From IMG/VR virus record IMGVR_UViG_3300037760_000114, positions 40,085-104,084 of that record: a stretch of DNA of 64,000 nucleotides, one strand, 5' to 3'. This stretch comes from a virus. Shown here piece after piece: positions 39,812-54,399 of this stretch (position 1 is the stretch's first letter; each line of letters starts with the position of its first letter). The notes beneath the pieces were generated by a model that saw only the letters and a program-made list of their open reading frames with translations, did not search any database and had not been told where the DNA came from. The position numbers were made by a program, and so were the translations under genes.

Positions 39812-42310
39812 TCACGCCACCGCCGCGAGGTCGAACAACGTTGGCATCGCCAGCTCAGCCTCGGCGGCCTGGAGATACTTAACCCCGTCGAGGAAGTAGC
39901 CCGGGTTCAACTCCACAGACCGCCCCTGCCGACCCAGCTTCAGTGCCCGAACCGGCACCGTGAACAGCCCGCCGAACGGGTCGTAAACCAGGTCTCCCTC
40001 GTTGCTGTACCGGCGGATCAGCCGGTCCACAATGTCGAACTGCAACGGACATACATGCATCGCCTGCGCCCGGCGTGACTGCTCCGTGTTGAGGGTCAGC
40101 ATCCGGTTGATGTCGTGCCACACGTCGGGGTGATGCGATCCCGGAGCGAGTGCCATGAACGTGGCCGGCAGCGCCCCACGACCCTCCAAGGCCTCGCCGA
40201 TGCGGACGTGCGCCTCGTAGTCGTAGACCTGCCGCAAGGTCTGCTCGGTGAACAGCCGGGACATCTGGTCGTGTGGCAGCGTGGCCAACTCTTCCGGTGT
40301 CAGGTGTCGCTCACCCGAGGAGCGCCAGAAGGCGTGCGCGTCGACCTGCCACCGAGAGCGGGTGTACTCCTGCTTCGACTTCGCCACCGGCACATCGGCG
40401 TAGCCCTTGGTCCGATCGGTCTGCGGCTTGTGGAACAGCAGGATGTACTCGGGTGAGCCGGCGCCCATCTTGGTTGCGTCCTTGCACTGCTCCGACCAGC
40501 CCAGCCGATACGTCTGGTTGTTCTCCCTAACCACATCGGTAACGACCGTGATCATGCCCATGTAGTCGAAGCCGTGCTTACGACTATGGGCGATCGCCTC
40601 CGCGTGGAACGGCGATACCGTAGGCACTCCAGCGCCGGTCACGTTGCCGAACAGGATGCGGTCCTTGACGTGGCAGCAGTAGATGCGCCCCGGTCGTAGC
40701 ACCCGCAGCAGCTCGGGCGTCAGATAGTCCATCTGAGTCCAGAAGTGCTGGTTGTCGTCGGTGTGCCCGAAGTCCTCGTACTGCGGGGTGTACTCGTAGT
40801 GGTTGGCGAACGGGATCGACGTGACGATCAAGTCGACCGATTCGCTGTCCATCGCCTGCGTCTCAATCACGCAGTCGTTGTTGGCGACCAGCCACCCCGC
40901 GCCGGACGCTTCGATGCGCTCCACGCCGATCGAGCGGGTCAGCGCCTCGGTGATGCCCCGCTGATCAAGCCCGTACTCACGGATGACCTCGGTCATCTTC
41001 GTCGTCAACTCCTCATGCTGTGCCCACTTGCGGCGCAGGGTCCGCACCACTTCCCGCTCGGACTCGGCGTGGATGATGTCGATGCGCACCCGCTCCGTCT
41101 GTAGAAACCTGTGGATGCGGTGGACGGCCTGTACGAAGTCGTTGAACGAGTACGTGACCCCGACGAAGATCGCCCGGTGGCAGTGCCGTTGGAAGTTGCA
41201 GCCGGACCCGGACAGCTCGGGCTTGGTGGCCAGCAGGCGACTTTCTCCGTCAGAGAAGTCGATGATCCGCTGCTCTCGGAGGTCAAGGTCCAGCGAGCCG
41301 TACACCTCAACCGCTTCCGGCAAAGCGCGCTTGATCGCGCGGCGCTCATCCTCCAGGTCGTGCCACAGGATGAAGTGGTCACCTGGTGAGGCGTTGACGA
41401 TCTCGGCCGCCTTCGCGACCCGCGCGTCCAACGTGCTCCGCTTCTCCCGCGCCGCGTCGATCACGCCCAGAGCGGCGCCCCGGAACAGGTGGCCCTGACC
41501 GTCGCGGTCCACCGGTGATTCTGAGTGGTCCACCGGGATCTCGTGGTAGATCACCTCGATCTCCGGCAGGTCATAGCCTGTGTCGTCGTACCCGAGGTCG
41601 GAGGGCTTCTGTAGGAACACCGCCCAGGTGTTCAGCCACAGCCAGAACTCCCGTTCCTTATGCGGGTACAGGGTCAGGTGATTGGCCTTCGTGGAGTCGC
41701 GCTGGAAGAACCGCGTCAAGGCTTGTCCGGTGTCCATCACGCCCAGGTAGCCGGCGTAGTGGATCAGCTCCTTGTGCCGGTTCGGCGACGGGGTTGCGGT
41801 GGCCACGAAGCGGTACTTCACCGCGTCGAACAGCGTCAGGAACGTCTGGTAGGTCTTCGATCCGAACGACCGCAGCACCGACGCCTCGTCGAGGCTCACG
41901 GCGTCGAACAGTGCCGGGTCCAGCCGGCCGTCCCGCACCGACTCGTAGTTGGTCAGGTAGATGCCCGGCCCGTCAACGTCACGGTCCCACCGAACGAACG
42001 TCACCTGCGTGCCGAGCATCCCGGCATCACGGGCGAACTCCTGCCGCACCCCCAACGGGCACACGATCAGGGCCTTGCCGCCGATCCGCGCCAGAATCAG
42101 GCGCATGATCTCCAGTTGAATCACCGATTTGCCGAGACCGAACGCGGCAAAGACTGCCCGCCGGCCGCCCCGGATCGCCCATTGGACAATGGCACGCTGG
42201 TGCGGCTTGAGGATCGGGTGAACGTCACCAGCCGCCACGGCGAAGCCGAACGTCTGGCTGAAGTCGACCTTGGCAGCCAGGAACTCGGCGTAGCTGGTGG
42301 TGACGCTCAT
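39812..42310 (-). CDS. SNF2-like helicase fused to an amino-DNA methyltransferase (beta class)
   Basis: GLGKS, LDEAS, TATPSPN, SGCNFQ, QAVHRIHRF; then VTSIPF (motif IV) and DPFGG (motif I). Confidence 0.88.
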   Translation of the reverse strand: MSVTTSYAEFLAAKVDFSQTFGFAVAAGDVHPILKPHQRAIVQWAIRGGRRAVFAAFGLGKSVIQLEIMRLILARIGGKALIVCPLGVRQEFARDAGMLGTQVTFVRWDRDVDGPGIYLTNYESVRDGRLDPALFDAVSLDEASVLRSFGSKTYQTFLTLFDAVKYRFVATATPSPNRHKELIHYAGYLGVMDTGQALTRFFQRDSTKANHLTLYPHKEREFWLWLNTWAVFLQKPSDLGYDDTGYDLPEIEVIYHEIPVDHSESPVDRDGQGHLFRGAALGVIDAAREKRSTLDARVAKAAEIVNASPGDHFILWHDLEDERRAIKRALPEAVEVYGSLDLDLREQRIIDFSDGESRLLATKPELSGSGCNFQRHCHRAIFVGVTYSFNDFVQAVHRIHRFLQTERVRIDIIHAESEREVVRTLRRKWAQHEELTTKMTEVIREYGLDQRGITEALTRSIGVERIEASGAGWLVANNDCVIETQAMDSESVDLIVTSIPFANHYEYTPQYEDFGHTDDNQHFWTQMDYLTPELLRVLRPGRIYCCHVKDRILFGNVTGAGVPTVSPFHAEAIAHSRKHGFDYMGMITVVTDVVRENNQTYRLGWSEQCKDATKMGAGSPEYILLFHKPQTDRTKGYADVPVAKSKQEYTRSRWQVDAHAFWRSSGERHLTPEELATLPHDQMSRLFTEQTLRQVYDYEAHVRIGEALEGRGALPATFMALAPGSHHPDVWHDINRMLTLNTEQSRRAQAMHVCPLQFDIVDRLIRRYSNEGDLVYDPFGGLFTVPVRALKLGRQGRSVELNPGYFLDGVKYLQAAEAELAMPTLFDLAAVA

Positions 42311-43715
42311 GACGCCGCCCCTGCTAGCCGTCGCCACGTGGTTTCCGAGCCGGCCCACCGCAGGTAGCACCCGTACGGGTCGCCGCAGCGGTTCCCACAC
42401 GGGCACGGCACCGGCGGGCACCAGGGGCAGCCGGGGATAGGTACCCGGTGCGTCATCCCTCGGGCGTGGGCGTCCGGCTCCGGTGCCTCCCGTAGCTGGT
42501 CGACAGCCGCCGGGGTGCTCACGTCAGCCACCTCCAAAGGGCGGCGATGGCGCCTGCGCAGCACAGGCCGAACAGCACCATGCAGCCGGTGCCTGCGACG
42601 GCGGCACCGAGGGACCGATCCCGTACGTCGTCGCGGCTCACGACTCGGCCCGCCGCTGCTCGATCAGCTGCCGCCACGCGGCGGTCAGCTCGTCGTACTC
42701 CTCATCGGCGCTGCGGGTAGACGCGTTGAACCCGAGCCCTTCCGCAGTCCACTGGCCAGGGACTCGACGGCCAAGGTCGTCCAGCGCTTCGTAGTAGTCG
42801 CCGTGCAGCTGGCCCAGGATGCAGTGGCACGTGGCTTCCAGGTTGAGCCGGTCGAGGTCGATGCGGTCAACCCAGCCGGGCTGATGCTGGTCGAGCCAGG
42901 CGGCCCCGGCGTTGACCCGCTCGGCGATGCTCGCGGCGCTCACCGGTCGACCTTGGGGTGGATCCAGGCGTCGTCGTCCGGCAGTGGGTCCGGCTGGGTG
43001 CGTGCGGCCAGCGACGCCACCCGTACGGCGATGTCGCGCGGGTCCGGGTCAGGACGGGCAGCCAGCTCCGCCAACTGCCGCCGGTAGTGGTCGAGGACGG
43101 CCGGCTTGTCTATCATGGATGCCATCGGAATCACTCCTGTCTATGGGGTTCCGGTCAAAATCGCGGCCGGGTGGTGAACACACCTGGCCGCGTCCACGTC
43201 TGGGGGCCGGGTGGTGTGCCCAGGGGGGAAAGGCGCACCACCCGGCCGCCTGTGGTGGTGCCCGACCCGCCCCCGTGACGGGCCGGACACCACAGCCGTC
43301 CGCGCACACACCCCACCCCCATGCGGTGGGCGCTGGACGACGTTGCCCCGGCCGGGGGTGGTCAGGTGTGGGCTAACCCCACCCGGCCGGAAGTTGGTGG
43401 CACCCGCGCCACGCGGCCCCGGTGCGGGCGCGGGTGCCATGCCGCCGGGCACCAAAGAGGTGGGTGCGCACACAGCGGCAGCCGGCCGGCTGCGAACGGG
43501 CAGCGGCCGGAGCATGGAAAGGGTCCAGTGGACAGCCAGCAACCCGACGGCGGCGGCCAGCTTCAGTACCGCACCGGAGTCCACCGGCCACCAGCGCATC
43601 GCACCCAGCAGGGCGGCACCGGCCAGGACCGCGCCGAGTCCGCCGAGCAGCACGGCGACGGTGGCGGTACTGGGGCGCCACGTGGGGTCGAACGCCCACA
43701 CAGCCAGACGGCGGA

Positions 43716-44243
43716 TCATCGGACACCCGCGTACGCGTCGACGGCCAGCCCACACTGCACCTCGCTGGGTGGCTGCCAGCGGTCACCGGCCCGCGCCGCC
43801 TGCGGCAGATGGCAGTGCGCGAACGCCTCCGCGAAGTCTTCGCCACCCGCGTTCCACCACGGGTCGGCGTGCCACCAGCCGTCAACGTCGAGGCCACGCA
43901 GCCACGCCCACGCCCCCCGGTCCAACCCGCCGGCCATGTCCCAGGCGTGGCCCAGCTCGTGCAGCCACGTCCACGTCATGTCGTCGGTGCTGTGGTGCTG
44001 CTGCACCGCCAGCGTGATCAGGCGGTGGGTGGAGTCGGCGGTGCCGCCATGCTCGGACGCCCCGCACCGGTAGGCGATCAACCATCCGTCGGGCAGCGGC
44101 ACCGTGCTGGTGGTGGTCACGTTGACAGCGCGGGCGGTTGCCTGGGCGCAGGACTCGCTGGCGTGGGCGACCGCACCGGCCAGGATGCCGGCACCGGCGA
44201 GGATCGCTGCCGCCGCGACGGTCGCGAGCAGACGCGGGCTCAC
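43716..44243 (-). CDS. Secreted zincin-like metallopeptidase
   Basis: Signal-peptide-like N-terminus (AHA-SE); HELGH and EDFAEAF. Confidence 0.7.
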   Translation of the reverse strand: MSPRLLATVAAAAILAGAGILAGAVAHASESCAQATARAVNVTTTSTVPLPDGWLIAYRCGASEHGGTADSTHRLITLAVQQHHSTDDMTWTWLHELGHAWDMAGGLDRGAWAWLRGLDVDGWWHADPWWNAGGEDFAEAFAHCHLPQAARAGDRWQPPSEVQCGLAVDAYAGVR

Positions 44244-44391
44244 AACGCACCGCCATACAAATCCTCAACCAGCGGCAGCAGCGGCTTACGCTCCACCACG
44301 GGCCGGTCACCGCCGAGTAGGCCGGTGAGGAACCCGGCCACGCCAGCGGCAAGCGCCAGCACGGCGACGATGGCAGCGAAGCGGCGGCGGG

Positions 44392-44973
44392 TCATGCCGA
44401 CTCGACATCCCGATCGTCATCCGCTGCGGCCTGGGGGCCTTCCAGCCGGTCAAGCCGTTCCTGGATCTGCTGGTCCGACTTGAGCAGGTCTTCGATCAGG
44501 CTTTCGGTCCGGTCGAGGCGCCGGGCTGAGTCCTGTACCGCCGAGTGGATGCCGGACAGGATCATCAGCTGCCCCTCGTGGAGGGTCCGCTGAGCCTGGG
44601 TCAGTTCGTCGAGGCGGGCATGCCGCAGCAGTTCGATGCCGCGCTTGAGGTAGGACTGCGCGCGGTCCTTCTTCTGCAACGACACGGGCAGGTGCTCCTC
44701 GGAGTGGATGACCCGGTAGCCCACGTTTTCGACCACTCCGAGGTACCGCCGGTGCTCCCGCAGCAGGGTGGTGTTCGCTGCCCCGACGGCCCGGTACACC
44801 CGGTCGCGAGCTACCGGAGTGTCGAGCCCTTCCTCCAGGGCTTCGATCAGCTCCTTGTAGGTGAAGGTCATGCCGGGTTCGGCGTCGTGGGTCAAGTCGT
44901 AGACGACCCGCCGGTCGCTGCGCCCGTCGTCACGCGACGGCTGAAACGGTGAGCCCGTAAGCGTCTTACTCAT
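44392..44973 (-). CDS. Hypothetical wHTH plus coiled-coil protein directly downstream of the pentamer array
   Basis: 193 aa; TFTYKELIEAL...NVGYRVI wing-like segment and heptad-rich C-terminus. Confidence 0.6.
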   Translation of the reverse strand: MSKTLTGSPFQPSRDDGRSDRRVVYDLTHDAEPGMTFTYKELIEALEEGLDTPVARDRVYRAVGAANTTLLREHRRYLGVVENVGYRVIHSEEHLPVSLQKKDRAQSYLKRGIELLRHARLDELTQAQRTLHEGQLMILSGIHSAVQDSARRLDRTESLIEDLLKSDQQIQERLDRLEGPQAAADDDRDVESA

Positions 44974-44990
44974 CGCTGCCCCCTAGTTGT

Positions 44991-45524
44991 GTTCCATGCC
45001 TTGCCGTGCCACGCCCATCCCGGCCGTGCCATGCCGTACCGGGCCGGGCCACGCCGAACCTTGCCGCGCCTCGCCGGGCCATGCCTGGCCGTGCGTGCGG
45101 TGGCCGGGAGTCGAACCCGGCCTACGACCATCACCGCGACCTTCCTTGCCATGCCCGGCCCTGCCTTGCCGATCCTGACCCCGCCGCTCCATGCCCTGCC
45201 CGGCCGCGCCGCGCCATGCCGCGTGCGTGGGCGCCCCGGACTCGAACCGGGGTGTATGCCATCCGCCCATCCCCTGCATCGCCTTTCCTTGCCATGACTG
45301 GCCTATCCTTGGACTGCCCTGCCCGGCCGGACCTTGCCGAGCCTCGCCCCGCCGGGCCGCACCCGGCCGCGCGCGAGCGCTGGGGGAGTCGGACCCCCAG
45401 TACGACCATCCGCTCTGCCATTCCTCTAACTCCTTGCCTCGCCCCGCCGGGCCGCGCCAACGCCTATCCGCGCCGGGCCGCGCCGGGCCGCGCCGTACCC
45501 AGACATACCGCGCCCGGCCACGCC
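44991..45524 (-). repeat. Downstream GG(C/T/A)-NN pentamer array: 4 tracts separated by 3 tRNA-like minihelices; probable ncRNA
   Basis: Tracts 44991-45090 (20 units), 45141-45220 (16), 45279-45368 (18), 45429-45524 (~19); separators 45091-45137, 45221-45269, 45369-45415. Confidence 0.9.
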
Positions 45525-45537
45525 CTGAACGTCCATG

Positions 45538-46104
45538 TCAGACGATCCGCACCGAGAACCGGCCGTAACCGTTGGTCCGGTTATCCCCCAGCCCTTCCGC
45601 CTTCCCCGCCAACTCGGCCACCCGCTGCAAGTCGCTGCGGTCCATGACGCTTTCCAGCAGAATCGCGTCTGCCACCAACGCCCAACGGGGGAACTTCGGA
45701 CGGACCCGCATAGTCCGCTTTCCGCTGATGCCAACGGCTGCCCGGTCGTGGAACTCGACCCGCTTGAACAGCTCCTGCGGGTCCTCCGGGCCTTCGTACG
45801 ACAGCGGTACGTTCATCTCGGTGAACTGCAACGCCCGGGTGACCTGCGTACCCTGCTTGCTGATCTTCCCGGCCTGGATGATGCACTTCCGCACGTTCGC
45901 GGTCGGCATGACGATCCGGCTGTCCTCCACGTACAGGCCGCCGAACCACTCCAGCCGCTCAATCGCCCGCCGGTCGTCCTCGGTCTTCTTCCGCTTGCTG
46001 GTGTAGGTCTGGATCTCCCGAACGATCGGGTTATCCGGATCGGCCAGCGAGATGTTGTGGCAGAGCAGTGGGCTAGTGCCCGTCAGCTCCAACTTGATAT
46101 CCAT
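45538..46104 (-). CDS. Stand-alone Cas7/RAMP-like (RRM-fold) protein
   Basis: 188 aa with a strong RBS (AGGAGG); N-terminal strand IKLELTGTSPLL, MPTANVRKCI helix, C-terminal glycine loop GLGDNRTNGYGRFSV. Confidence 0.72.
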   Translation of the reverse strand: MDIKLELTGTSPLLCHNISLADPDNPIVREIQTYTSKRKKTEDDRRAIERLEWFGGLYVEDSRIVMPTANVRKCIIQAGKISKQGTQVTRALQFTEMNVPLSYEGPEDPQELFKRVEFHDRAAVGISGKRTMRVRPKFPRWALVADAILLESVMDRSDLQRVAELAGKAEGLGDNRTNGYGRFSVRIV

Positions 46105-46150
46105 CCGGTTCCTCCTATGTTCTGGGGCTGCCTGCCCCTGTCTGTTGTGG

Positions 46151-46574
46151 AAGCCCAGCCCTGTCAAGCCATGCCGGGTCCGTGAGCGCCGGGGAGTCGA
46201 ACCCCGGTAGATGACCATCCGCTCGCCTGCTGCCCTTGCCTTGCCTTGCCGGTCCCCGCCTGTCCATGCCGCGCCGGACCTCGCCTATCCTTGCCGCGCG
46301 TGGGCGTCGCGGCCTCGAACCGCGATGGCTGCCAGCCGCCCGCCAACTCCCTGCCGTGCCTTGCCCTTCCGGGCCGGGGACTGCCAAGCCGAGCCGCGCC
46401 CAGCCGAGCCACTGCCCTGCTGTGCCGAGCCAATTCCAGCCGTGCGTGGGCGTCCGGGACTCGAACCCGGATGTTTGCCACCCGCCCGCCACCCCTGCCA
46501 ATCCCTGCCGAGCCGCGCCGATCCACGCCGTGCCCGTCCCGGCCGCGCCCAGCCGCGCCGTGGCCTGCCCAGCC
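46151..46574 (-). repeat. Upstream GG(C/T/A)-NN pentamer array: 4 tracts separated by 3 tRNA-like minihelices; probable ncRNA
   Basis: Tracts 46151-46175 (~5), 46236-46295 (12), 46346-46441 (~19), 46495-46574 (16); separators 46181-46224, 46296-46341, 46442-46487. Confidence 0.9.
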
Positions 46575-46577
46575 ATG

Positions 46578-46832
46578 TCATGCAGCCCTTCGCGCGCGGG
46601 CCGCAGCCGACTTGATCGCCAACCGAGAGAAGTAGGCCCGCTTCCGGGCATCCGCCATCAGCCGGGCGGTCTTGTCGTCCAAGTCGGGGTGCTCCGCCCG
46701 GACCTCCCGTAGCCAGCGGTCCTCGGCGGCCTTACGGGCGGCCTCGGTCGCGGCTGCCCGATCGATGGTCCTGCCCCACTTGACGAGGGCACCGAGGCGG
46801 CCGGCAGAGGCGTACCGGTTCGGGGTGCTCAT
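46578..46832 (-). CDS. Small basic hypothetical protein
   Basis: 84 aa, coupled to cro by an ATGA overlap. Confidence 0.6.
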   Translation of the reverse strand: MSTPNRYASAGRLGALVKWGRTIDRAAATEAARKAAEDRWLREVRAEHPDLDDKTARLMADARKRAYFSRLAIKSAAARARRAA

Positions 46833-47086
46833 GCCGCCACCGGATCTTCACCGTTCGACTGACGCAGCAGCAGTGCGCGGTCCCGCACGTGCAGCGCGTC
46901 GCAGATCCGGGCGAACAACTCCGGGGAGCAGGTCCGGTCGGGGCGGGTCTCCAGCATGCTGATGTACGGGGCGGAGCAGTTCACGGCTTCGGCCAGCCCC
47001 TTGACGCTGTATCCGGCGAGCTTGCGCAGCTCCCGCATCGCTGTGCCGTCGATCTCGGCGTTGGCGCTAACGTCATCCAACTTCAT
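46829..47086 (-). CDS. Cro-like XRE HTH regulator
   Basis: MRELRKLAGYSVKGLAEAVNCSAPYISMLET; divergent from the repressor. Confidence 0.85.
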   Translation of the reverse strand: MKLDDVSANAEIDGTAMRELRKLAGYSVKGLAEAVNCSAPYISMLETRPDRTCSPELFARICDALHVRDRALLLRQSNGEDPVAA

Positions 47087-47238
47087 AGGATCAAGTTACC
47101 GCTAGTTACCGTCAATTGCTAGGCGCTGTAGGTCATCCGTTCGGGTACTACCGCCTATATGATCCGACATTCGCCAACTAGCCGAGTCTGTACCGGAGGT
47201 AACTAGACAGAACGGGAGTTGACATGCATGATTAGCGC
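47087..47238. promoter_or_regulatory. Divergent immunity/switch region with operator-like repeats
   Basis: AGTTACCG twice (47094, 47104); inverted copy GGTAACTAG at 47198-47206; locally AT-rich. Confidence 0.6.
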
Positions 47239-47676
47239 GTGACCGAAGCGGCCAGGAGGCGGCTCGGCGACCACGTCCGAGACCGCCGCGTCGAGCTGGG
47301 GCTGCACATCAACGACGCCGCCGACGCGGCCGGCCTCAACCCCAAGACGTGGACGGCATTGGAGCGCGGCAGCCGCGCGACGCGCGACAGCAACTACCGC
47401 GACATCGAGCGGGTCCTTCGCTGGCGGCACGGCAGCGTCGTGCGCGCCCTCGAAGGACAAGCGCCGATACCCGTCGAGTCAGCGCCGCCACAGCTACAGC
47501 CGCCGGCTACGCCAACACCTGAGCTTCCCGACGACCTGCCCGAATGGGACCTACGCGCACAGGTGGCATGGGTGAAGAGGCAGCCCTGGCCAGCGACGGA
47601 CAAGCTGGCGATGATCCAGTACCTGTTCGAGCTGGACCAGCAGGCGGGCGGGACAGCGAGCCGGCTGGCCGGATAG
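47239..47676 (+). CDS. CI-like XRE repressor
   Basis: LGDHVRDRRVELGLHINDAADAAGLNPKTWTALERG. Confidence 0.8.
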   Translation: MTEAARRRLGDHVRDRRVELGLHINDAADAAGLNPKTWTALERGSRATRDSNYRDIERVLRWRHGSVVRALEGQAPIPVESAPPQLQPPATPTPELPDDLPEWDLRAQVAWVKRQPWPATDKLAMIQYLFELDQQAGGTASRLAG

Positions 47677-47758
47677 GTAACGCTGTAGCAGACAGCAGGA
47701 GATTATGTCGTTTCCGCACGTCACAGCCCTGCGTATAGGCTGGTCGCTACAGCGCGGC

Positions 47759-47811
47759 GAGCGCGAGAACTTCTAATCCCAAGGTCGTAGGTTCGATCCC
47801 TACCGGGCGCG
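47759..47811 (+). pseudogene. tRNA-Arg(TCT)-like 3' remnant between repressor and integrase
   Basis: Loop CTTCTAA and T-arm GTAGG-TTCGATC-CCTAC; no pairing 5' acceptor strand found. Confidence 0.55.
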
Positions 47812-47934
47812 CTTTCCCCAGCTAGAAGCACCTTTTTGGTCTCGGTTCGCCCGCCCGGCGGATGCCACAGAGCTACGGCAGCGGGGTATTCTGCGCCCGG
47901 AAGCTGAGCGCTGTAGCACCCTGGGAGGGCTGCC

Positions 47935-48822
47935 GTGGACCCGAACGACATGCACCTCGCCTCCTACCGCCGGCACCTGCGGGCCAAGAACCGCAGCCCC
48001 ACCACCATCGACGACTACCGCGACGCCCTGACCCGCCTGGCCGCCCACTACAACGGCGCCGACCTGGCCGGGCTCGACAACCGGCAGATCGGCGACTACC
48101 TCGGCTGGATGCTCGACTCCGGGCTCGCCGGCACCACCGTCGGAGTCCACTACCGGTCGCTGCGGGCCTTCTTCAACTGGGCGGTACGGGAGGAGATCAT
48201 CGACCGGTCACCGATGCGGGGTATGGAGCATCCCAAGACGACCGACAAGCCGCCGGAGGTGGTGCCCGATGACGAGATCCGGGCGCTGCTGAAGACGTGC
48301 GCCGGGGCCACCTTTGAGGCCCGCCGCGACAATGCGATCATCCGCCTGTGGTGTGAACCCGGCTCGCCTAGGGTTTCGGAGATGGCCGGGCTCGACCTTG
48401 GCGATCTCGACCTGAAACATGATCAGATCACGGTGCGGGGCAAGGGCGACAAGATCCGCACCGTGCCGTTCGGCGCCAGGACCGGCCAGGCCATCGACCG
48501 GTACCTGCGGGTCCGGGCCAAGCACCGCAGCGCCAAGCGGGACGAGTTGTGGCTCGGCAACCTTGGCGTGGGTCTGACCGCCTCGGGTCTGACGCAGATG
48601 CTGCGGCGCCGGTGCAAACGGGCCAGTGTGCCACACATGCATCCGCATCAGCTGCGGCACACCGCCGCCCACGCCTGGGCCGACGCCGGCGGCTCCGACC
48701 AGGACGCCATGCAGCTGTTCGGGTGGACCTCGCCGGAGATGCCCCGCCTGTACGGGCGGTCGGCCGGTGCCGAGCGGGCACGCCGTGCGGCTCGGCGTGC
48801 CTCGCTCGGCGACCGGTTCTAA
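47935..48822 (+). CDS. int: Tyrosine integrase/recombinase
   Basis: PRVSE, KGDK, HPHQLRHT, GW, Y; adjacent to the immunity region. Confidence 0.9.
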   Translation: MDPNDMHLASYRRHLRAKNRSPTTIDDYRDALTRLAAHYNGADLAGLDNRQIGDYLGWMLDSGLAGTTVGVHYRSLRAFFNWAVREEIIDRSPMRGMEHPKTTDKPPEVVPDDEIRALLKTCAGATFEARRDNAIIRLWCEPGSPRVSEMAGLDLGDLDLKHDQITVRGKGDKIRTVPFGARTGQAIDRYLRVRAKHRSAKRDELWLGNLGVGLTASGLTQMLRRRCKRASVPHMHPHQLRHTAAHAWADAGGSDQDAMQLFGWTSPEMPRLYGRSAGAERARRAARRASLGDRF

Positions 48823-49824: not shown

Positions 49825-51024
49825 TCATCCCTTGACGCACACGACCTGCTTGAGGTGCGCTACCACCTCGACCAGGTCCCGCTGCTCGGCCATCACCTGA
49901 CCCAGGTCCTTGTACGCGGCGGGGATCTCGTCGACGACCCCGGCGTCCTTGCGGCACTCCACCCCGGCGGTCTGCTCGGCGAGGTCCTCCAGGGTGAAGC
50001 TGCGCTTGGCCTGACCGCGAGACATCCTGCGGCCAGCACCGTGCGACGCCGAGTTGTAGGCGTCCGGGTTACCCAACCCACGGACGACGTACGAGCCGGT
50101 GCCCATGCTGCCCGGGATGATCCCCAGCTCTCCGACGCCCGCCCGGATCGCACCCTTGCGGGTCACCAGCAGCTCTACACCGCCGTACGTCTCCTCGGCC
50201 ACGTAGTTGTGGTGGCATGAGATCGGCTCGTCGAAGCTGACCTGCGGCAGGTGGTCACGGACCACGCCGCAGAGCAGGGCCAGCATGACCGCCCGGTTGC
50301 GGGCGGCGAACTCCTGCGCCCACGCGAGGTCACGCCGGTAGGCGTCCATCTCCGGGGTGCCGGCGACGAACACGGCCAAGTCCCGGTCCGGCAGGTCGGC
50401 GTTGTGCGGTAGCCCGCGGGCTACCGTGATGTGGCGCTCGGCAAGCTCCTTGCCGATGTTGCGGGAGCCGGAGTGCAGCATCAGCCACACCCGGCCCGCA
50501 TCCGGCCCGCCCTGCTCGACGCAAAGTTCCGCAAAGTGGTTGCCGCCGCCAAGTGTTCCCATCTGGTGCTCGGCCCGACCCCGGAGCTTGCCCACATCGG
50601 CGCGCAGTTCGCCGAACCGGGACCAGAACCCCACCCAGCCCTTGCCGTCGAGGCCGGGCACACGACGCGGGTCGACAGCCGACTCATGCGACTGGAACCC
50701 GACCGGGATCGCCTCCTCGATCGCCGCCCGTAGCCGGCCGAGGTCGTCCGGCAGGTCGCTGTCCGTCAGCGAGGTACGGACGCAGCTCATGCCGCAGCCG
50801 ATGTCCACTCCGACCGCGGCCGGGGCCAACGCCTGCCGCATGGCGATCACCGACCCCACCGTCGCCCCCTTGCCGAAGTGCACATCGGGCATCACGGCGA
50901 CACCCTCCACCCACGGCAGGTTGCCGATGTTGCGTAGCTGCTGCTGAGCCTGCGGCTCGATGCCGGCGGGGTCGGTCCACACCCGTACGGGTGCGCGGGT
51001 GCCGGGCAGGGTGGTGTGGGGCAT
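49825..51024 (-). CDS. rtcB: RtcB RNA ligase
   Basis: MPDVHFGKG, VGVDIGCGM, GTLGGGNHF, LHSGSR, HHNY, RKGA, PGSMG, SHGAGR, DE.P.AYK; RBS GAAGGAG. Confidence 0.97.
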   Translation of the reverse strand: MPHTTLPGTRAPVRVWTDPAGIEPQAQQQLRNIGNLPWVEGVAVMPDVHFGKGATVGSVIAMRQALAPAAVGVDIGCGMSCVRTSLTDSDLPDDLGRLRAAIEEAIPVGFQSHESAVDPRRVPGLDGKGWVGFWSRFGELRADVGKLRGRAEHQMGTLGGGNHFAELCVEQGGPDAGRVWLMLHSGSRNIGKELAERHITVARGLPHNADLPDRDLAVFVAGTPEMDAYRRDLAWAQEFAARNRAVMLALLCGVVRDHLPQVSFDEPISCHHNYVAEETYGGVELLVTRKGAIRAGVGELGIIPGSMGTGSYVVRGLGNPDAYNSASHGAGRRMSRGQAKRSFTLEDLAEQTAGVECRKDAGVVDEIPAAYKDLGQVMAEQRDLVEVVAHLKQVVCVKG

Positions 51025-51148
51025 GGCAGTGCTCCTTCGGTCGTCTGCCAAGAGTCGCTGGTCTGAGTGTCGATCTCAGCGAGCCCGGGGTTATGAGTCC
51101 CGGGTGGGCACCGGCCCACCAGCGTGGTCCACACAGTGGATGGCATCG

Positions 51149-51219
51149 AGATCGCGGCCGGACTCGAACCGGCGTCTACCGCTTTGCAGGCGGTCCCCTG
51201 ACCACTCGGGCACGCGATC
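51149..51219 (-). tRNA. tRNA-Cys(GCA)
   Basis: Cloverleaf read by hand. Confidence 0.88.
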
Positions 51220-51224
51220 TTGTG

Positions 51225-51297
51225 TGTCCCCGGCTGGGTTCGAACCAGCGACCTCGGCCTTCGGAGGGCCGCGCGCTTCCGGCTGCGCCACGAGGAC
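51225..51297 (-). tRNA. tRNA-Arg(CCG)
   Basis: Cloverleaf read by hand. Confidence 0.88.
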
Positions 51298-51298
51298 A

Positions 51299-51385
51299 TG
51301 GTGCGGGTAGAGAGATTCGAACTCCCTGAGCGCATGCGCACCGGGGTTACAGCCCGGCTCACCTCACCATCGGTGACGTACCCGC
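51299..51385 (-). tRNA. tRNA-Tyr(GTA)
   Basis: Long variable arm; encoded CCA. Confidence 0.85.
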
Positions 51386-51386
51386 T

Positions 51387-51460
51387 TGGGGTGACTGGCC
51401 GGAGTTGAACCGGCATGTCCAGGGCCACAACCTGGCGCTCTACCATTGAGCTACAGCCAC
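51387..51460 (-). tRNA. tRNA-His(GTG)
   Basis: Cloverleaf; encoded CCA. Confidence 0.88.
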
Positions 51461-51462
51461 AG

Positions 51463-51534
51463 TGCCCGGTGGAGGTGTCGAACCTCCGGCCTTCTGCTTG
51501 TAAGGCAGACGCTCTCCCGTTGAGCTAACCGGGC
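51463..51534 (-). tRNA. tRNA-Val(TAC)
   Basis: Cloverleaf read by hand. Confidence 0.88.
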
Positions 51535-51539
51535 ATGGG

Positions 51540-51613
51540 TGCGCCGCCTGGGGATCGAACCCAGCGCGGCCAGTTGATAAGACTGGTCTCACCGACCAGG
51601 TGAGCTGCGGCGC
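51540..51613 (-). tRNA. tRNA-Ile(TAT)
   Basis: Anticodon arm CCAGT-CTTATCA-ACTGG. Confidence 0.72.
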
Positions 51614-51616
51614 ATC

Positions 51617-51700
51617 TGGCGGAGGGGGCGGGATTCGAACCCGCGAGGGTGTGACCCCTACGCCGCTTCCAACGGCGTTCCCGTGACCGCCGGCCCCTCC
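51617..51700 (-). tRNA. tRNA-Ser(GGA)
   Basis: Long variable arm; CCA. Confidence 0.82.
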
Positions 51701-51701
51701 A

Positions 51702-51775
51702 TGGCTCTCCCGGCTGGACTCGAACCAACATCGGCGGAGTAACAATCCGCTGTCCTACCATTGAACGACGGGAGA
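51702..51775 (-). tRNA. tRNA-Asn(GTT)
   Basis: Cloverleaf; CCA. Confidence 0.88.
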
Positions 51776-51779
51776 TCGG

Positions 51780-51853
51780 TAGCGCCGACGGGGCTCGAAC
51801 CCGCACCGTCTGGATTGAAAGTCCAGGGACCTGACCGATTAGTCTACGGCGCC
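51780..51853 (-). tRNA. tRNA-Glu(TTC)
   Basis: Cloverleaf read by hand. Confidence 0.88.
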
Positions 51854-51858
51854 TTGCG

Positions 51859-51932
51859 TGTTCCGACCTGGGTTCGAACCAGGGGCCTCCACCGTGTCGA
51901 GGTGGTGCTCTACCGGGCTGAGCTACCGGAAC
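51859..51932 (-). tRNA. tRNA-Val(GAC)
   Basis: Cloverleaf read by hand. Confidence 0.85.
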
Positions 51933-51933
51933 G

Positions 51934-52007
51934 TAGCGGGTGCCGGAATCGAACCGACCTGTCTCGGGTTATGAGCCCGTTGAGCACAACCAGTGCTCCT
52001 ACCCGCA
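51934..52007 (-). tRNA. tRNA-Met(CAT), initiator-like
   Basis: Three G-C pairs at the base of the anticodon stem; unpaired 1:72. Confidence 0.8.
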
Positions 52008-52008
52008 G

Positions 52009-52080
52009 TGCGCCGCCGAGGAATCGAACCCCGGACACTCCGCTTAAAAGGCGGCAGCTCTACCACTGAGCTAGCGGCGC
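52009..52080 (-). tRNA. tRNA-Lys(TTT)
   Basis: Cloverleaf read by hand. Confidence 0.88.
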
Positions 52081-52085
52081 ATGAG

Positions 52086-52244
52086 CGGCGGTGGAGTAGG
52101 CGTGTGGCGACGCCTCGTTCTTAAGCCGCAGACCAAGCGCCGTTCTCCGCCTCGCCTTCTTAGGGGCGACACATCACCCAGCTCCGGTCCTGCCAGCACG
52201 TTTAGGAGACCTGCCCTGGTACCCGGTTGCGGCCTCCACCGCCG
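52086..52244 (-). ncRNA. Unidentified ~160-nt structured RNA within the tRNA array
   Basis: 11-bp terminal stem CGGCGGTGGAG/CTCCACCGCCG; inner GCCGCA/TGCGGC helix and hairpins. Confidence 0.55.
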
Positions 52245-52246
52245 AG

Positions 52247-52318
52247 CCTCCCGCCCCCGATTCGAACGGGGACACCCGCTGTAGGAGAGCGGTGCTCTGT
52301 CCGTTGAGCTAGCGGGAG
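52247..52318 (-). tRNA. tRNA-Arg(CCT)
   Basis: Cloverleaf read by hand. Confidence 0.85.
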
Positions 52319-52319
52319 A

Positions 52320-52392
52320 TGGTGCGGCGCCCGAGAGTTGAACTCGGCCCGCTGGCCTTAGAAGGGCCGGCTGCGCATCCGGCGCGCGCCGC
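52320..52392 (-). tRNA. tRNA-Arg(TCT), short D arm
   Basis: Loop CTTCTAA; CCA. Confidence 0.75.
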
Positions 52393-52395
52393 ATG

Positions 52396-52469
52396 TGGTA
52401 CGCCGTGAAGGAATCGAACCTTCGTCCTCGGGGTAAGAGCCCGGAGCTAAACCACTCAGCTAACGGCGC
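52396..52469 (-). tRNA. tRNA-Lys(CTT)
   Basis: Cloverleaf; CCA. Confidence 0.85.
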
Positions 52470-52470
52470 G

Positions 52471-52554
52471 TGGAGGAGGGTAAGGGAGTCGAACTCTCGG
52501 GTGTCACCCCGGCACGGTTTTCGGGACCGCTTTGCCACCATGGCGCTACCCTCC
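52471..52554 (-). tRNA. tRNA-Ser(CGA)
   Basis: Long variable arm; CCA. Confidence 0.8.
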
Positions 52555-52559
52555 ATGAG

Positions 52560-52633
52560 TCGGGTGCGGGCGATTTGAACGCCCGGCCTCCGCGTCCCGA
52601 ACGCGGCGCTCCACCTAGCTGAGCTAGCACCCG
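52560..52633 (-). tRNA. tRNA-Pro(CGG)
   Basis: Cloverleaf read by hand. Confidence 0.88.
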
Positions 52634-52638
52634 TTGCG

Positions 52639-52712
52639 TACCCCCGACAGGACTCGAACCTGCCGCCTCCTGGTTCGTAGCCAGGTGCTCTATCCAGATG
52701 AGCTACGGGGGC
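52639..52712 (-). tRNA. tRNA-Arg(ACG)
   Basis: Cloverleaf read by hand. Confidence 0.9.
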
Positions 52713-52713
52713 A

Positions 52714-52789
52714 TGGTGGGCCACCCAGGAGTTGAACCTGGCGATGCCGACATATCAGATCGGTCTCGTCACCGGCTGAGTCGTGACCC
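52714..52789 (-). tRNA. tRNA-Ile(GAT)
   Basis: Cloverleaf; CCA. Confidence 0.8.
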
Positions 52790-52790
52790 G

Positions 52791-52872
52791 TGGTGGACCA
52801 TCCCGGAGTCGAACCGGGTTCCGCTGCCGTACCGTCATGCGGTCTTCGGCAGCGTCGAAACCTTCATGGCCC
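52791..52872 (-). ncRNA. Mini-tmRNA-like RNA (tRNA-like domain only)
   Basis: G3-U70 pair, A73, CCA; no D stem but GGTTTCGAC; helix GCTGCCG/CGGCAGC; T-arm TTCGACT. Confidence 0.7.
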
Positions 52873-52876
52873 TCGG

Positions 52877-52961
52877 CGGACAGTGAGGGATTCGAACCCC
52901 CGGTGGTTTCCCACTCCGCGCTAGCAACGCGGCGCCTTAAGCCGGGCTCGGCCAACTGTCC
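52877..52961 (-). tRNA. tRNA-Ser(GCT)
   Basis: Long variable arm. Confidence 0.87.
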
Positions 52962-53063
52962 TTGGGCGTTCGGCCTCTCCTACGACCCCCAACGGGATCG
53001 CGCACCCACATGGGGCTGCGATTGCAGCGCCTATCCCATAGCCGAACTAGTGGGTCCCTAGCG

Positions 53064-53137
53064 CGCCTCGTACGGGACTCGAACCCGTGCATCTCCTCCT
53101 TGACAGGGAGGCGTCCACTCCACTGGACCGACGAGGC
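53064..53137 (-). tRNA. tRNA-Asp(GTC)
   Basis: Cloverleaf read by hand. Confidence 0.88.
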
Positions 53138-53142
53138 ATACG

Positions 53143-53216
53143 TACCCGGGACACGATTCGAACGTGCACTGTGCTGGTTCTAAGCCAGCCGCCTCCTGCC
53201 GTTGGGCTACCCGGGC
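53143..53216 (-). tRNA. tRNA-Leu(TAG), short variable region
   Basis: Loop CTTAGAA. Confidence 0.82.
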
Positions 53217-53217
53217 A

Positions 53218-53293
53218 TGGTGGAGAAGAGCGGACTCGAACCGCTTGCCTCCGCTTTGCAAGAGCGGCGCTCTACCTGATGAGCTACATCCCC
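53218..53293 (-). tRNA. tRNA-Ala(TGC)
   Basis: G3-U70; CCA. Confidence 0.88.
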
Positions 53294-53294
53294 G

Positions 53295-53370
53295 TGGAGC
53301 CGGTGACGCGGATCGAACGCGCTCCCTCCTGCGTACGAAGCAGGCGCACTACCTTCAGTGCTTCACCGGC
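53295..53370 (-). tRNA. tRNA-Thr(CGT)
   Basis: Cloverleaf; CCA. Confidence 0.85.
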
Positions 53371-53371
53371 A

Positions 53372-53505
53372 GGGTAGGCCGCCCGGACTTGAACCGGGCA
53401 TCTCCCGCTGCCCGCCCTCTGGCGGGACTCGCCCGGTGCTCCATCGGGTTCCCTAGGCTCCGATGGTCTTAGGCGGCAGGCGACTTGCCGTTAGTCGATT
53501 GGCCC
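53372..53505 (-). ncRNA. tRNA-like RNA with a large structured insertion replacing the anticodon loop
   Basis: D arm CGACTAACGGCAAGTCG; T arm CCCGG-TTCAAGT-CCGGG; insert contains a CCATCGG/CCGATGG hairpin. Confidence 0.6.
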
Positions 53506-53510
53506 ACGTA

Positions 53511-53579
53511 AGCCGGCGGCGCGAGTCGAACGCGCGGCTGCCGCCTTACAAGGGCGGTGCACCACCGTGGCTCGCCGGC
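53511..53579 (-). tRNA. tRNA-Thr(TGT)
   Basis: Cloverleaf with a short D arm. Confidence 0.8.
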
Positions 53580-53583
53580 ATCG

Positions 53584-53656
53584 CTGGGAGCCCAGGATTC
53601 GAACCTGAACCGACGGTTTCAGAGACCGCCGTGCTGCCGGATTACACCAGCTCCCA
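53584..53656 (-). tRNA. tRNA-Gln(CTG)
   Basis: Cloverleaf read by hand. Confidence 0.87.
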
Positions 53657-53691
53657 ATGACCCGGCCGGGCCTAGTCATCCCGGCCGGGGT

Positions 53692-54144: not shown

Positions 54145-54163
54145 CTCCTGTCGTGGTGGGCGC

Positions 54164-54237
54164 TGGAGCGGCTACGGGGAATCGAACCCCGGTCTGCTGC
54201 ATGGCAAGCAGCCGCACTGCCGTTGTGCTACAGCCGC
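54164..54237 (-). tRNA. tRNA-Gly(GCC)
   Basis: Cloverleaf; CCA. Confidence 0.88.
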
Positions 54238-54242
54238 ATGAG

Positions 54243-54316
54243 AGCCATCGGCGCGATTCGAACGCGCGGCCTTCCGCTTACCGGGCGGACGCTCTAACCA
54301 CCTGAGCTACGACGGC
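54243..54316 (-). tRNA. tRNA-Thr(GGT)
   Basis: Cloverleaf read by hand. Confidence 0.87.
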
Positions 54317-54317
54317 G

Positions 54318-54394: not shown

Positions 54395-54399
54395 ACGAG

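What the first reader, a model, noticed from the sequence alone, without database searches (positions are those of the whole stretch)
44392..46574. Candidate phage RNA-guided system: a lone Cas7/RAMP-like gene between GG(C/T/A)-NN pentamer arrays
Seen: a 188-aa gene (45538-46104) with RAMP/Cas7-like hallmarks (N-terminal strand followed by SPLL, C-terminal loop GLGDNRTNGYGRF). It is flanked by 8 tracts of ~5-20 pentamers in which a near-constant GG(C/T/A) alternates with a variable dinucleotide. Tract 45090->44991 on the minus strand gives NN = CA AT CC GA GC AA TC GT CC CC AC AT AC CG TG GT AC AA AT AC, and every tract carries a different NN string. No cas1, cas2, cas3 or cas6 and no canonical CRISPR is present in the window. 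Established: Cas7-family RAMPs polymerise along guide RNA with fixed periodicity. Inference: each tract is a guide, the constant triplet is the protein-binding scaffold, and the NN pairs spell a non-contiguous target. With no nuclease, silencing of competing phages is the likely output. The locus sits just downstream of cro, so it should be expressed early. This fits my recollection of a recently described phage 'VIPR' family (RAMP plus GGY/NN RNAs), which I cannot verify here and which should be checked in the literature.
Basis: partly seen in the sequence, partly recalled or inferred. Interest (0 to 1): 0.97.

Follow-up and report, generated by a model that had tools for sequence, protein, structure and literature searches.

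The report
Phage VIPR RNA-guided silencing locus
This is a real member of the recently described VIPR family, a phage-borne relative of CRISPR whose guide RNAs read DNA two bases at a time; it sits in an uncultivated 104-kb actinobacterial phage, has tRNA-like guide tails, and one guide matches a gene of a rival prophage.

Summary

- **Protein.** The 188-aa protein (45538-46104, minus) matches the solved SUSP1 Vipr protein (PDB 36pp) over its full length, E=1.1e-24. It folds with pLDDT 95 into a Csm3/Cas7-like RAMP.
- **Not a lone gene.** ORF 44392-44973 belongs to phrog_5926. That is the family of the gene next to vipr in SUSP1-like, Pseudomonas and actinophage loci (the position of vap1 in the SUSP1 operon).
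- **Arrays.** Eight tracts hold 128 pentamers: G 95%, G 93%, C 75%, then two variable bases. All lie on the vipr strand.
- **Tails.** Six tracts end in a covarying 44-nt tail: a 5-bp outer stem, a 12-nt linker with a conserved GG, and a 6-bp hairpin with a TTCGANT loop. This resembles a tRNA acceptor/T-arm. The four preprints I word-searched do not link tRNA to vrRNAs; figures and data files were not readable.
- **Target.** By the published one-base-skip code, array H matches 33 of 34 guide bases in an FtsK/SpoIIIE-like gene of a Microbispora rosea prophage. Every skipped base falls on a codon third position. Shuffled guides reach at most 24.
- **No self-target.** No array matches the phage's own genome above shuffled level.

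VIPR has been published since April 2026, so this is a new member of a known kind. First-stage notes of this scan on the same stretch also flag the tRNA-like minihelices and the wobble-skipping code. Transcription and processing were not testable.

The parts
46829..47086 (-). cro-like small HTH regulator (85 aa), first gene of the minus-strand operon that runs into the VIPR locus. Context only.
   Evidence: Pfam HTH_31 E=4.4e-10. Divergent 145-aa HTH at 47239-47676 and tyrosine integrase at 47935-48822.
46578..46832 (-). 84-aa ORF of unknown function between cro-like gene and array A.
   Evidence: phrog_2842, E=2.7e-4. Its stop codon lies 3 nt before array A.
46490..46574 (-). vrRNA array A, 17 pentamer units.
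46446..46489 (-). Tail t1, tRNA-like T-loop minihelix.
   Evidence: Covariance-model hit, 51.2 bits; fold.
46346..46441 (-). vrRNA array B: 6 units, a 1-nt slip at 46411, then 13 units (one degenerate).
46300..46343 (-). Tail t2.
   Evidence: Covariance-model hit, 50.2 bits.
46231..46295 (-). vrRNA array C, 13 units.
46182..46226 (-). Tail t3 (13-nt linker).
   Evidence: Covariance-model hit, 51.7 bits.
46105..46177 (-). Tract D: short degenerate array (GGCAT GGCTT GACAG GGCTG GGCTT), a small hairpin and the vipr ribosome-binding site.
   Evidence: The same GGCAT GGCTT motif precedes vap and the next gene in relative L059.
45538..46104 (-). vipr, 188-aa RAMP protein.
   Evidence: PDB 36pp_D 'SUSP1 Vipr protein' E=1.1e-24. 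phrog_4652 E=1e-43. AlphaFold pLDDT 95.1. Foldseek top hits are Csm3/Cmr4/type VII Cas7.
45419..45534 (-). vrRNA array E: 15 units, a 1-nt slip at 45459, then 8 units.
45374..45417 (-). Tail t4 (loop TCCGACT).
   Evidence: Covariance-model hit, 39.6 bits.
45274..45368 (-). vrRNA array F, about 19-20 units, three of them degenerate.
45227..45270 (-). Tail t5.
   Evidence: Covariance-model hit, 54.9 bits.
45141..45220 (-). vrRNA array G, 16 units.
45096..45139 (-). Tail t6.
   Evidence: Covariance-model hit, 42.1 bits.
44991..45090 (-). vrRNA array H, 20 units, with no T-loop tail. Units 1-17 (45090-45006) are the guide. The last three units (GGCAA GGCAT GGAAC) are a semi-constant end that abuts the vap ribosome-binding site.
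   Evidence: 33/34 match to L174:7912-7961 by the 1-nt-skip code; the last three units do not match.
44392..44973 (-). vap1-like accessory gene, 193 aa, predicted DNA-binding.
   Evidence: phrog_5926 E=1.1e-9. The same family covers the gene just downstream of vipr in HY02 (7e-76), LESphi2, LittleE, MakoManhole, prophiBWHA-1 and Trine. 57-66% identical copies sit in relatives L048, L059 and L061.

Best explanation
The locus is a VIPR (Viral Interference Programmable Repeat) system of the SUSP1/P. fulva kind (type II-like). It is carried by a temperate, tRNA-rich, 104-kb actinobacterial phage known only from metagenomes.

Shown here:
- vipr encodes a minimal RAMP homologous to the solved Vipr protein.
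- A vap1-position accessory gene lies downstream.
- Seven long GGY/NN arrays flank vipr on its strand.
- Six arrays end in a conserved, covarying tail.
- One array has a near-perfect natural target under the one-base-skip code.

Inferred from the SUSP1 and P. fulva work:
- The arrays are transcribed, probably with the cro-like early operon.
- Vipr protomers polymerise one per pentamer, flip out the GGY bases and present the NN pairs.
- The NN pairs bind double-stranded DNA as NN-x-NN-x, and the bound filament blocks transcription.
- With no nuclease gene in the locus, the output is silencing of competing elements.

Array H is aimed at the conserved ATPase motif region (QIPDAKSVPPIITRCVT) of an FtsK/SpoIIIE-like gene in a Microbispora rosea prophage. 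The skipped bases sit on codon wobble positions, so synonymous drift does not break the match.

The tails replace the SUSP1 pseudoknot with a tRNA-like acceptor/T-arm minihelix. I take it to cap the 3' end of each vrRNA and to mark where the polycistronic transcript is cut.
For: - Family exists, with its rules.
- Protein: phmmer against PDB 36pp_D E=1.1e-24, residues 4-187 against 5-189. phrog_4652 E=1e-43. Model pLDDT 95.1. Foldseek top hits Csm3/Cmr4/Cas7, probability 1.00.
- GGY contacts H17, R138, D177 and R179 of SUSP1 correspond to H16, R135, D174 and R176 here. These are invariant across nine distant Viprs.
- Accessory gene.
- Arrays.
- Relatives: 104 of 134 homologue loci carry at least one strict array on the vipr strand (411 arrays), against 5 loci (7 arrays) on the other strand.
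- Tails: 62 covariance-model hits, all on the vipr strand and none on the window's 33 tRNAs. 88.6% of cells are paired against 62.8% in shuffles. Covariation score is 0.623 against 0.157 (0 of 500 shuffles reach it) and 0.06-0.16 when partners are slid.
- Target: skip 1 gives 33/34; skips 0, 2 and 3 give 20-21. 500 unit-order shuffles give 20.8 +/- 0.9, maximum 24. All 17 skipped bases are third codon positions of a 708-aa ORF.
- That ORF is WP_051761339.1, FtsK/SpoIIIE domain protein of Microbispora rosea. It lies in a provirus with tape measure, minor tail and large terminase genes.
- The same pattern with up to 3 mismatches is absent from 401 sampled genomes of the class.
- No self-target.
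Against: - Transcription, ends and Vipr binding of the arrays are therefore not shown.
- A target was found for only one of the seven long arrays (A-C, E-H). Six other 8-unit seeds in IMG/VR gave only chance-level hits.
- The array with the target is the one that lacks the T-loop tail.
- Two SUSP1 contact residues differ here (W178 to N175, K33 to Q32), and 16% of units are GGA, which the SUSP1 pyrimidine pocket would exclude.
- The 'type II' label rests on homology of Vipr and the accessory gene. The authors' phylogeny was not available to me.
- The host is unknown. Microbispora is inferred from one target.
Confidence: 0.9

Rival explanations
1. Same VIPR system, but the tRNA-like tails are spacers rather than retained caps. 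Host RNase P cuts at the 5' edge of the outer stem and RNase Z after the base that follows it. The minihelix is excised, and tail-less arrays like H are the mature guides. This would be a natural version of the engineered tRNA-gRNA array.
For: - The one array with a proven target has no tail.
- Some tails have no array upstream: Trine L002:3083 directly after the vipr stop, and MakoManhole L003:1649 after the gp79 stop.
- The two stems stack to 11-12 bp with a continuous 3' strand. They carry the invariant G-TTCGA-C of a T-arm and are mostly followed by A or AC. By established knowledge these are the features RNase P and RNase Z measure on tRNA.
- No hammerhead or other Rfam ribozyme lies between the arrays.
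Against: - In SUSP1 the structured tail stays on the vrRNA and caps the filament.
- Tails with an array upstream (42 of 55) outnumber tails with an array downstream (32 of 53), and several end an array series with nothing after them.
- ARAGORN and the Rfam tRNA model do not recognise the tails.
- No cleavage data exist.
Confidence: 0.35
2. The system regulates the phage's own or its host's genes, for example the lysis-lysogeny decision, rather than attacking competitors.
For: It lies in the immunity region next to cro-like and cI-like genes and the integrase. Arrays abut the ribosome-binding sites of vipr and vap, which could allow autoregulation.
Against: No array matches the phage's own 104 kb above shuffled level under any skip rule from 0 to 2. 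The only target found lies in a foreign prophage that shares no nucleotide similarity with this phage. Host chromosomal targets could not be searched because the host is unknown.
Confidence: 0.06
3. The pentamer tracts are not guides. They are G-rich simple repeats and decayed tRNA fragments that lie next to an unrelated RAMP-fold gene by chance.
For: The genome has 69.6% G+C, so GG-rich runs are easier to obtain. Six of seven long arrays have no known target.
Against: - Runs of 11-20 units never arise in composition-matched simulations.
- The same arrays, on the same strand, accompany the homologous gene in 104 of 134 loci from several phyla.
- Tail stems covary.
- The 33/34 gapped match with perfect wobble register lies about 13 standard deviations above shuffles.
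Confidence: 0.01

Closest known systems
VIPR type II systems of Escherichia phage SUSP1 and the Pseudomonas fulva prophage (bioRxiv 10.64898/2026.04.26.720920 and 10.64898/2026.04.26.720927)
   Same: - Homologous Vipr protein: 33-35% identity, E=1e-24 to the solved protein.
- Homologous accessory gene (phrog_5926).
- GGY/NN pentamer arrays of 13-20 units on the vipr strand, placed upstream and downstream of vipr.
- A structured 3' tail.
- Phage-borne, with no nuclease gene.
- A natural target in a resident prophage, read by the 1-nt-skip code with skips on wobble positions.
- Array ends share the motif GGYAT GGAAG/C, and the tail start or linker shares GATGG.
   Different: - The tail is a tRNA-like T-loop minihelix, not an H-type pseudoknot.
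- Four arrays lie between vipr and vap, whereas in the other loci examined here the accessory gene directly follows vipr.
- One functional-looking array has no tail and abuts the vap ribosome-binding site.
- W178/Y176 is Asn and K33 is Gln.
- GGA units are common.
- The host phylum is Actinomycetota.
Actinophage loci: Mycobacterium phage LittleE gp34/gp33, Gordonia phages Trine gp41/gp40 and MakoManhole gp78/gp77, prophiBWHA-1 gp43/gp42 (annotated 'hypothetical protein')
   Same: vipr plus vap pair, GGC-NN arrays and the same T-loop tail.
   Different: Only 35-39% Vipr identity. They have fewer arrays (1-5), and vipr and vap are adjacent. These phages can be cultured, so they are the practical route to experiments.
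Class 1 CRISPR-Cas backbone subunits (Csm3/Cmr4/Cas7)
   Same: RRM core, glycine-rich loop and thumb. One protomer binds per fixed RNA period, and the thumb flips bases out.
   Different: - About 10-15% identity.
- No cas1/2/3/6/10 gene in the locus.
- No repeat-spacer array.
- The period is 5 nt with 2 read bases, rather than 6 nt with 5 read bases.
- The guide is genetically fixed rather than acquired.
tRNA punctuation and tRNA-like processing signals (mitochondrial tRNA punctuation, MALAT1 mascRNA, engineered tRNA-gRNA arrays). Comparison from my own knowledge.
   Same: An acceptor/T-arm-like helix with a T-loop is placed between functional RNAs in one transcript.
   Different: There is no D arm or anticodon arm; a 12-nt linker with GG replaces them. 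Cleavage by tRNA-processing enzymes is not shown here.

Membership tests
VIPR system | Vipr protein: a minimal RAMP homologous to the described Vipr proteins | tested here: met
   PDB 36pp_D 'SUSP1 Vipr protein' E=1.1e-24 over the full length. The same PHROG as the SUSP1-like HY02 protein.
VIPR system | RAMP fold with RRM core, glycine-rich loop and thumb | tested here: met
   pLDDT 95.1. Foldseek top hits are Csm3/Cmr4/Cas7, probability 1.00, TM 0.45-0.53. G-loop GLGDNRTNGYGRF is present.
VIPR system | Residues that hold G1, G2 and Y3 of the repeat (SUSP1 H17, R138, D177, R179) | tested here: met
   H16, R135, D174 and R176 are invariant in alignment A6.
VIPR system | Aromatic residue stacking on G2 (W178/Y176) and Lys33 at the skip-base backbone | tested here: not met
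   N175 and Q32 here. They are contact residues of the two solved members, not part of the family definition.
VIPR system | Tandem GGY/NN (YNNGG) pentamer arrays next to vipr, on its strand | tested here: met
   128 units: G 95%, G 93%, C/T 81%, then variable NN.
VIPR system | Invariable structured 3' tail after the repeat tract | tested here: met
   Six of the seven long arrays (A-C, E-H) have one. The structure covaries. The fold differs from the SUSP1 pseudoknot.
VIPR system | Accessory vap gene (type II: a predicted DNA-binding vap1) | tested here: met
   phrog_5926 is shared with the gene downstream of vipr in six other loci. That this family is 'vap1' is inferred from its position in the SUSP1-like operon.
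VIPR system | Carried by a virus or provirus | tested here: met
   The genome is a 104,084-bp virus record with an integrase, cro-like and cI-like regulators and 33 tRNAs.
VIPR system | NN dinucleotides match natural DNA targets with one skipped base, in a competing mobile element, with no self-target | tested here: met
   Array H: 33/34 in a Microbispora rosea prophage gene. No self-match. No target was found for the other arrays.
VIPR system | Arrays transcribed as roughly 100-150-nt RNAs that co-purify with Vipr and repress transcription | not testable with these tools
No wet data.
CRISPR-Cas (class 1) | Repeat-spacer array and an adaptation or effector cas gene set | tested here: not met
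   The locus has no direct repeats of 25-40 nt with spacers. Rfam finds no CRISPR repeat family in the window. Neighbouring ORFs are HTH, vap and unknown. Not every ORF of the window was scanned.
tRNA (Rfam RF00005), for the six tails | Full cloverleaf recognised by tRNA models | tested here: not met
   ARAGORN and Rfam (E up to 1) call none of the tails. The tail model hits none of the 33 true tRNAs. The tails are tRNA-like, not tRNAs.
Hammerhead-interspersed VIPR arrays (described for types I and V) | Hammerhead ribozyme between vrRNAs | tested here: not met
   No Rfam ribozyme hit in 43000-48000 at E up to 1.

The most novel reading that the evidence does not exclude
The T-loop tails are true tRNA mimics. 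They would recruit the host's tRNA-maturation enzymes (RNase P, RNase Z, perhaps the CCA-adding enzyme and T-loop modifiers) to cut one early transcript into separate guide RNAs and the vipr and vap mRNAs. That would be a natural counterpart of engineered tRNA-gRNA arrays. The same tail occurs in VIPR loci from Actinomycetota to Bacteroidota, so this could be an old and widespread route of guide biogenesis. Tail-less arrays that abut ribosome-binding sites could couple guide loading to translation of vipr and vap.
Probability: 0.35. Interest if true: 0.65.

Novelty: new member of a known kind. Interest (0 to 1): 0.42.

Why it matters
- It extends VIPR, so far characterised in Escherichia and Pseudomonas phages, to a large temperate phage of high-G+C actinobacteria.
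- It gives an independent, natural confirmation of the one-base-skip code: a 17-unit guide whose skipped bases all fall on wobble positions of a rival prophage's translocase gene.
- It shows that in this clade the last two or three units of an array are semi-constant and should be left out when predicting targets.
- It points to a tail class built like the top half of a tRNA, which suggests a testable route of guide processing by host tRNA enzymes.
- The culturable relatives LittleE, Trine and MakoManhole carry the same tail. Their genes are still annotated as hypothetical, and one annotated CDS (Trine gp40) overlaps the guide RNAs.

Tried and rejected
- **Near-identical phages.** No megablast match in the phage collection.
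- **Pfam on the protein.** No hit. PHROGs and the PDB sequence search were what identified it.
- **Targets.** Scans of the phage's own genome and of 134 related loci gave nothing above shuffled guides. Six of those seeds (G 3' and 5', H 3', C, F, A) gave only chance hits whose extensions matched at 50% or less. The two 3' seeds were badly chosen, because the tail-proximal units turned out to be semi-constant. The other arrays do not hit the Microbispora provirus.
- **Reaching Microbispora genomes.** I could not obtain a genome handle.
- **Host.** The genome-contig search gave only 7 loci, the closest a Haloechinothrix MAG at 65% identity.
- **Tail origin.** The 3' 26 nt of each tail match the phage's own tRNAs at only 16-20 positions, as expected from the shared T-arm consensus. 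This gives no sign of descent from a particular tRNA.
- **Pseudoknot idea.** Pairing between the linker GGTC and the loop GACT was considered. It was dropped because tails with loop GAGT have no matching linker.
- **Literature.** The three VIPR preprints and one language-model preprint were word-searched: the three VIPR texts contain no 'tRNA' at all, and the other's VIPR passages do not connect tRNA or RNase P to vrRNAs. The one supplementary text held has no mention either. Figures and data files are not held, so prior depiction of this tail cannot be excluded.
A first-stage note reports a solitary Cas7 about 8.4 kb into the genome. Pfam on four ORFs in the fetched stretch there, three plus-strand and one minus-strand, found only an HTH domain. 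The smaller minus-strand ORFs inside the noted interval were not tested.
Full report
**Observation.** ORF 45538-46104 on the minus strand encodes 188 aa behind a good ribosome-binding site. Homologues are 188-193 aa.

On the same strand, nine strict runs of at least five GGNNN units lie between 46559 and 44991, the longest 20 units. The rest of the 104,084-bp genome has six runs of five units only. Composition-matched simulations give 2.7 runs on average and never more than seven units.

Parsed between genes and conserved elements there are eight tracts, A to H. Over 128 units the first two positions are G in 95% and 93%. The third is C 75%, A 16%, T 6%. The last two use 15 of the 16 dinucleotides. 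The NN string quoted for 45090->44991 is exact.

**The family is real.** Three bioRxiv preprints of 2026 describe VIPR:
- A Vipr RAMP protein with vrRNAs made of GGY/NN repeats followed by a structured 3' tail.
- Recognition of double-stranded DNA in which each NN pairs and one target base is skipped.
- Transcriptional silencing of competing phages and satellites.
- Seven types, with accessory vap genes.

**The protein is a Vipr.**
- A sequence search of the PDB gives one hit, 36pp chain D 'SUSP1 Vipr protein', E=1.1e-24, residues 4-187 against 5-189.
- Pfam has nothing. PHROGs places it in phrog_4652 with the SUSP1-like HY02 protein.
- An AlphaFold model built on 33 homologues has pLDDT 95.1.
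- In a PDB copy that predates the VIPR structures, its best structural neighbours are Csm3, Cmr4 and type VII Cas7.
- The SUSP1 residues that hold the GGY bases (H17, R138, D177, R179) correspond to H16, R135, D174 and R176. These are invariant across nine Viprs from four phyla.
- W178 is Asn and K33 is Gln in this subclade.

**It is not a lone gene.** ORF 44392-44973 (193 aa) belongs to phrog_5926. That family covers the gene immediately downstream of vipr in HY02, Pseudomonas phage LESphi2, LittleE, MakoManhole, prophiBWHA-1 and Trine. Close relatives keep it at 57-66% identity. On this basis, and on the Vipr similarity, I call the system type II-like. The authors' tree was not available to me.

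**The tails.** Six tracts end in a 44-nt element anchored on GGTTCGA. Each folds the same way:
- an outer stem of 5-6 bp;
- a linker of about 12 nt with a conserved GG (one G strictly invariant);
- a 6-bp hairpin with loop TTCGANT, closed by an invariant G-C pair;
- a 3' strand that runs without a break from the inner stem into the outer stem, giving 11-12 stacked pairs;
- usually an A or AC after the outer stem.

A covariance model built from 15 tails finds 62 in 581 kb of related loci. All lie on the vipr strand. In the window it hits only the six tails and none of the 33 tRNAs. On the resulting alignment:
- 88.6% of cells pair, against 62.8% in shuffles.
- 11 of 12 pairs change on both sides.
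- The covariation score is 0.623, against 0.157 in shuffles and at most 0.16 when partners are slid. The alignment was fitted to the model, so it leans that way.

The layout matches a tRNA acceptor stem stacked on a T-arm, with the linker GG where D-loop G18-G19 would sit. That comparison comes from my knowledge of tRNA structure. ARAGORN and Rfam do not call the tails tRNAs, and the tails do not derive from a particular phage tRNA. I found no link between tRNA and vrRNAs in the three VIPR preprints or the language-model preprint, nor in the one supplement text held. I cannot see their figures.

**Relatives.**
- 104 of 134 loci encoding a Vipr homologue carry strict arrays on the vipr strand, against five on the other strand.
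- The T-loop tail occurs in 22 or more loci. These include the close relatives at 59-81% identity, LittleE, Trine, MakoManhole, prophiBWHA-1, an Aquihabitans MAG, a Haloechinothrix MAG and three Bacteroidota loci.
- Other relatives at about 50% identity have staggered arrays, plain hairpin tails or short tails. SUSP1-like phages have the pseudoknot.
- 42 of 55 tails have an array just upstream and 32 of 53 have one just downstream. A few follow a stop codon directly. The tail is therefore mainly a 3' element but also behaves as punctuation.

**Target.**
- Joining the NN pairs with one wildcard, no array matches the phage itself or 134 related loci above shuffled guides.
- Seven exact 8-unit seeds were scanned in IMG/VR. 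Six gave only chance hits.
- The 5' seed of array H hit a 73.7-kb provirus, where the full guide matches 35 of 40 bases.
- The first 17 units match 33 of 34. The last three units (GGCAA GGCAT GGAAC) do not.
- Skips of 0, 2 or 3 give 20-21, a parallel-strand control gives 20, and 500 unit-order shuffles give 20.8 +/- 0.9 with a maximum of 24.
- All skipped bases are codon third positions of a 708-aa ORF, spelling QIPDAKSVPPIITRCVT.
- The protein is WP_051761339.1, FtsK/SpoIIIE domain protein of Microbispora rosea.
- The element has tape measure, minor tail and large terminase genes, no Vipr or Vap homologue, and no nucleotide similarity to this phage.
- The pattern with up to three mismatches is absent from 401 sampled genomes of the class.
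- The unmatched end of H is a motif shared by many array ends and by tail-less arrays before the vap ribosome-binding site in relative L059. The last units are therefore not guide.

**Mechanism.**
- Shown: homology, anatomy, tail structure, one natural target, and no self-target.
- Inferred from the SUSP1 and P. fulva work: transcription, one protomer per pentamer, base flipping of GGY, gapped pairing and repression.
- Inferred from gene order: co-transcription with the cro-like gene early in infection. No sigma-70-like promoter was found on the minus strand inside the locus, though the scan is weak for actinobacteria.
- Open: whether the tails stay on the guides or are excised by tRNA-processing enzymes, and how the tail-less array H gets its 3' end.

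**Verdict.** This is a genuine VIPR locus, a new member of a family published in 2026. Its local peculiarities are the tRNA-like tail, arrays between vipr and vap, and a tail-less guide with a prophage target. First-stage notes of this scan on the same stretch also flag the minihelices and the wobble-skipping code; I reached both independently before reading them and tested them here.

Noticed in passing
window 49825-55083 (minus): A block of 33 tRNA genes (51148-55083) lies directly beside a phage RtcB tRNA-splicing ligase (Pfam RtcB E=2.8e-122). This looks like a kit for replacing or repairing tRNAs cut by host anticodon nucleases.
   Followed up: partly
window 41888-41981 (minus): ARAGORN calls a 94-nt tRNA-Arg(acg) inside the 869-aa helicase-methyltransferase ORF (39812-42421). 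Rfam does not confirm it, so it is probably a false call.
   Followed up: partly
window 46411 and 45459: Single-base slips in the pentamer register inside arrays B and E. They are reminiscent of the 'staggered' arrays of relatives L081, L089 and L115, where each guide ends GGCAAGGCAG and the next starts one base out of register.
   Followed up: no
window 46105-46177 and 44974-45005; L059:7830-7850 and 8460-8480: A shared motif (GGCAT GGCWT GGAAC/G, then CA-rich) sits just before the ribosome-binding sites of vipr, vap and the next gene. Vipr bound there could couple guide loading to translation.
   Followed up: partly
L002 (Gordonia phage Trine) 3083-3356: The annotated CDS gp40 (locus 3091-3894) overlaps three T-loop tails and at least one array. 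Homology to the accessory-gene family starts only at residue 111, so the annotated start is probably too far upstream.
   Followed up: partly
L052, L053, L054 (Dysgonomonas, Bacteroides, Bacteroidaceae): VIPR loci of Bacteroidota, with Vipr about 29% identical, carry the same T-loop tail in AT-rich form. This tail class therefore spans phyla.
   Followed up: partly
G004 (L192) about 62900-63700 of the Microbispora rosea provirus: A G-rich region with GGCATGTCGGC-like words about every 50 nt and short GGNNN runs. The element has no Vipr homologue. It could be solo guides or another repeat system.
   Followed up: no
ARAGORN and Rfam at gathering score report nothing there.
   Followed up: partly
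Pfam on four ORFs (three plus-strand, one minus-strand) found only an HTH_31 domain in a 434-aa ORF. The smaller minus-strand ORFs inside the noted interval were not tested.
   Followed up: partly
window 43716-44243 (minus): A 175-aa ORF downstream of the locus (one small ORF, 44240-44395, lies between it and vap) has an N-terminal hydrophobic stretch and an HELGH zinc-protease-like motif. It has no Pfam or PHROG hit.
   Followed up: no
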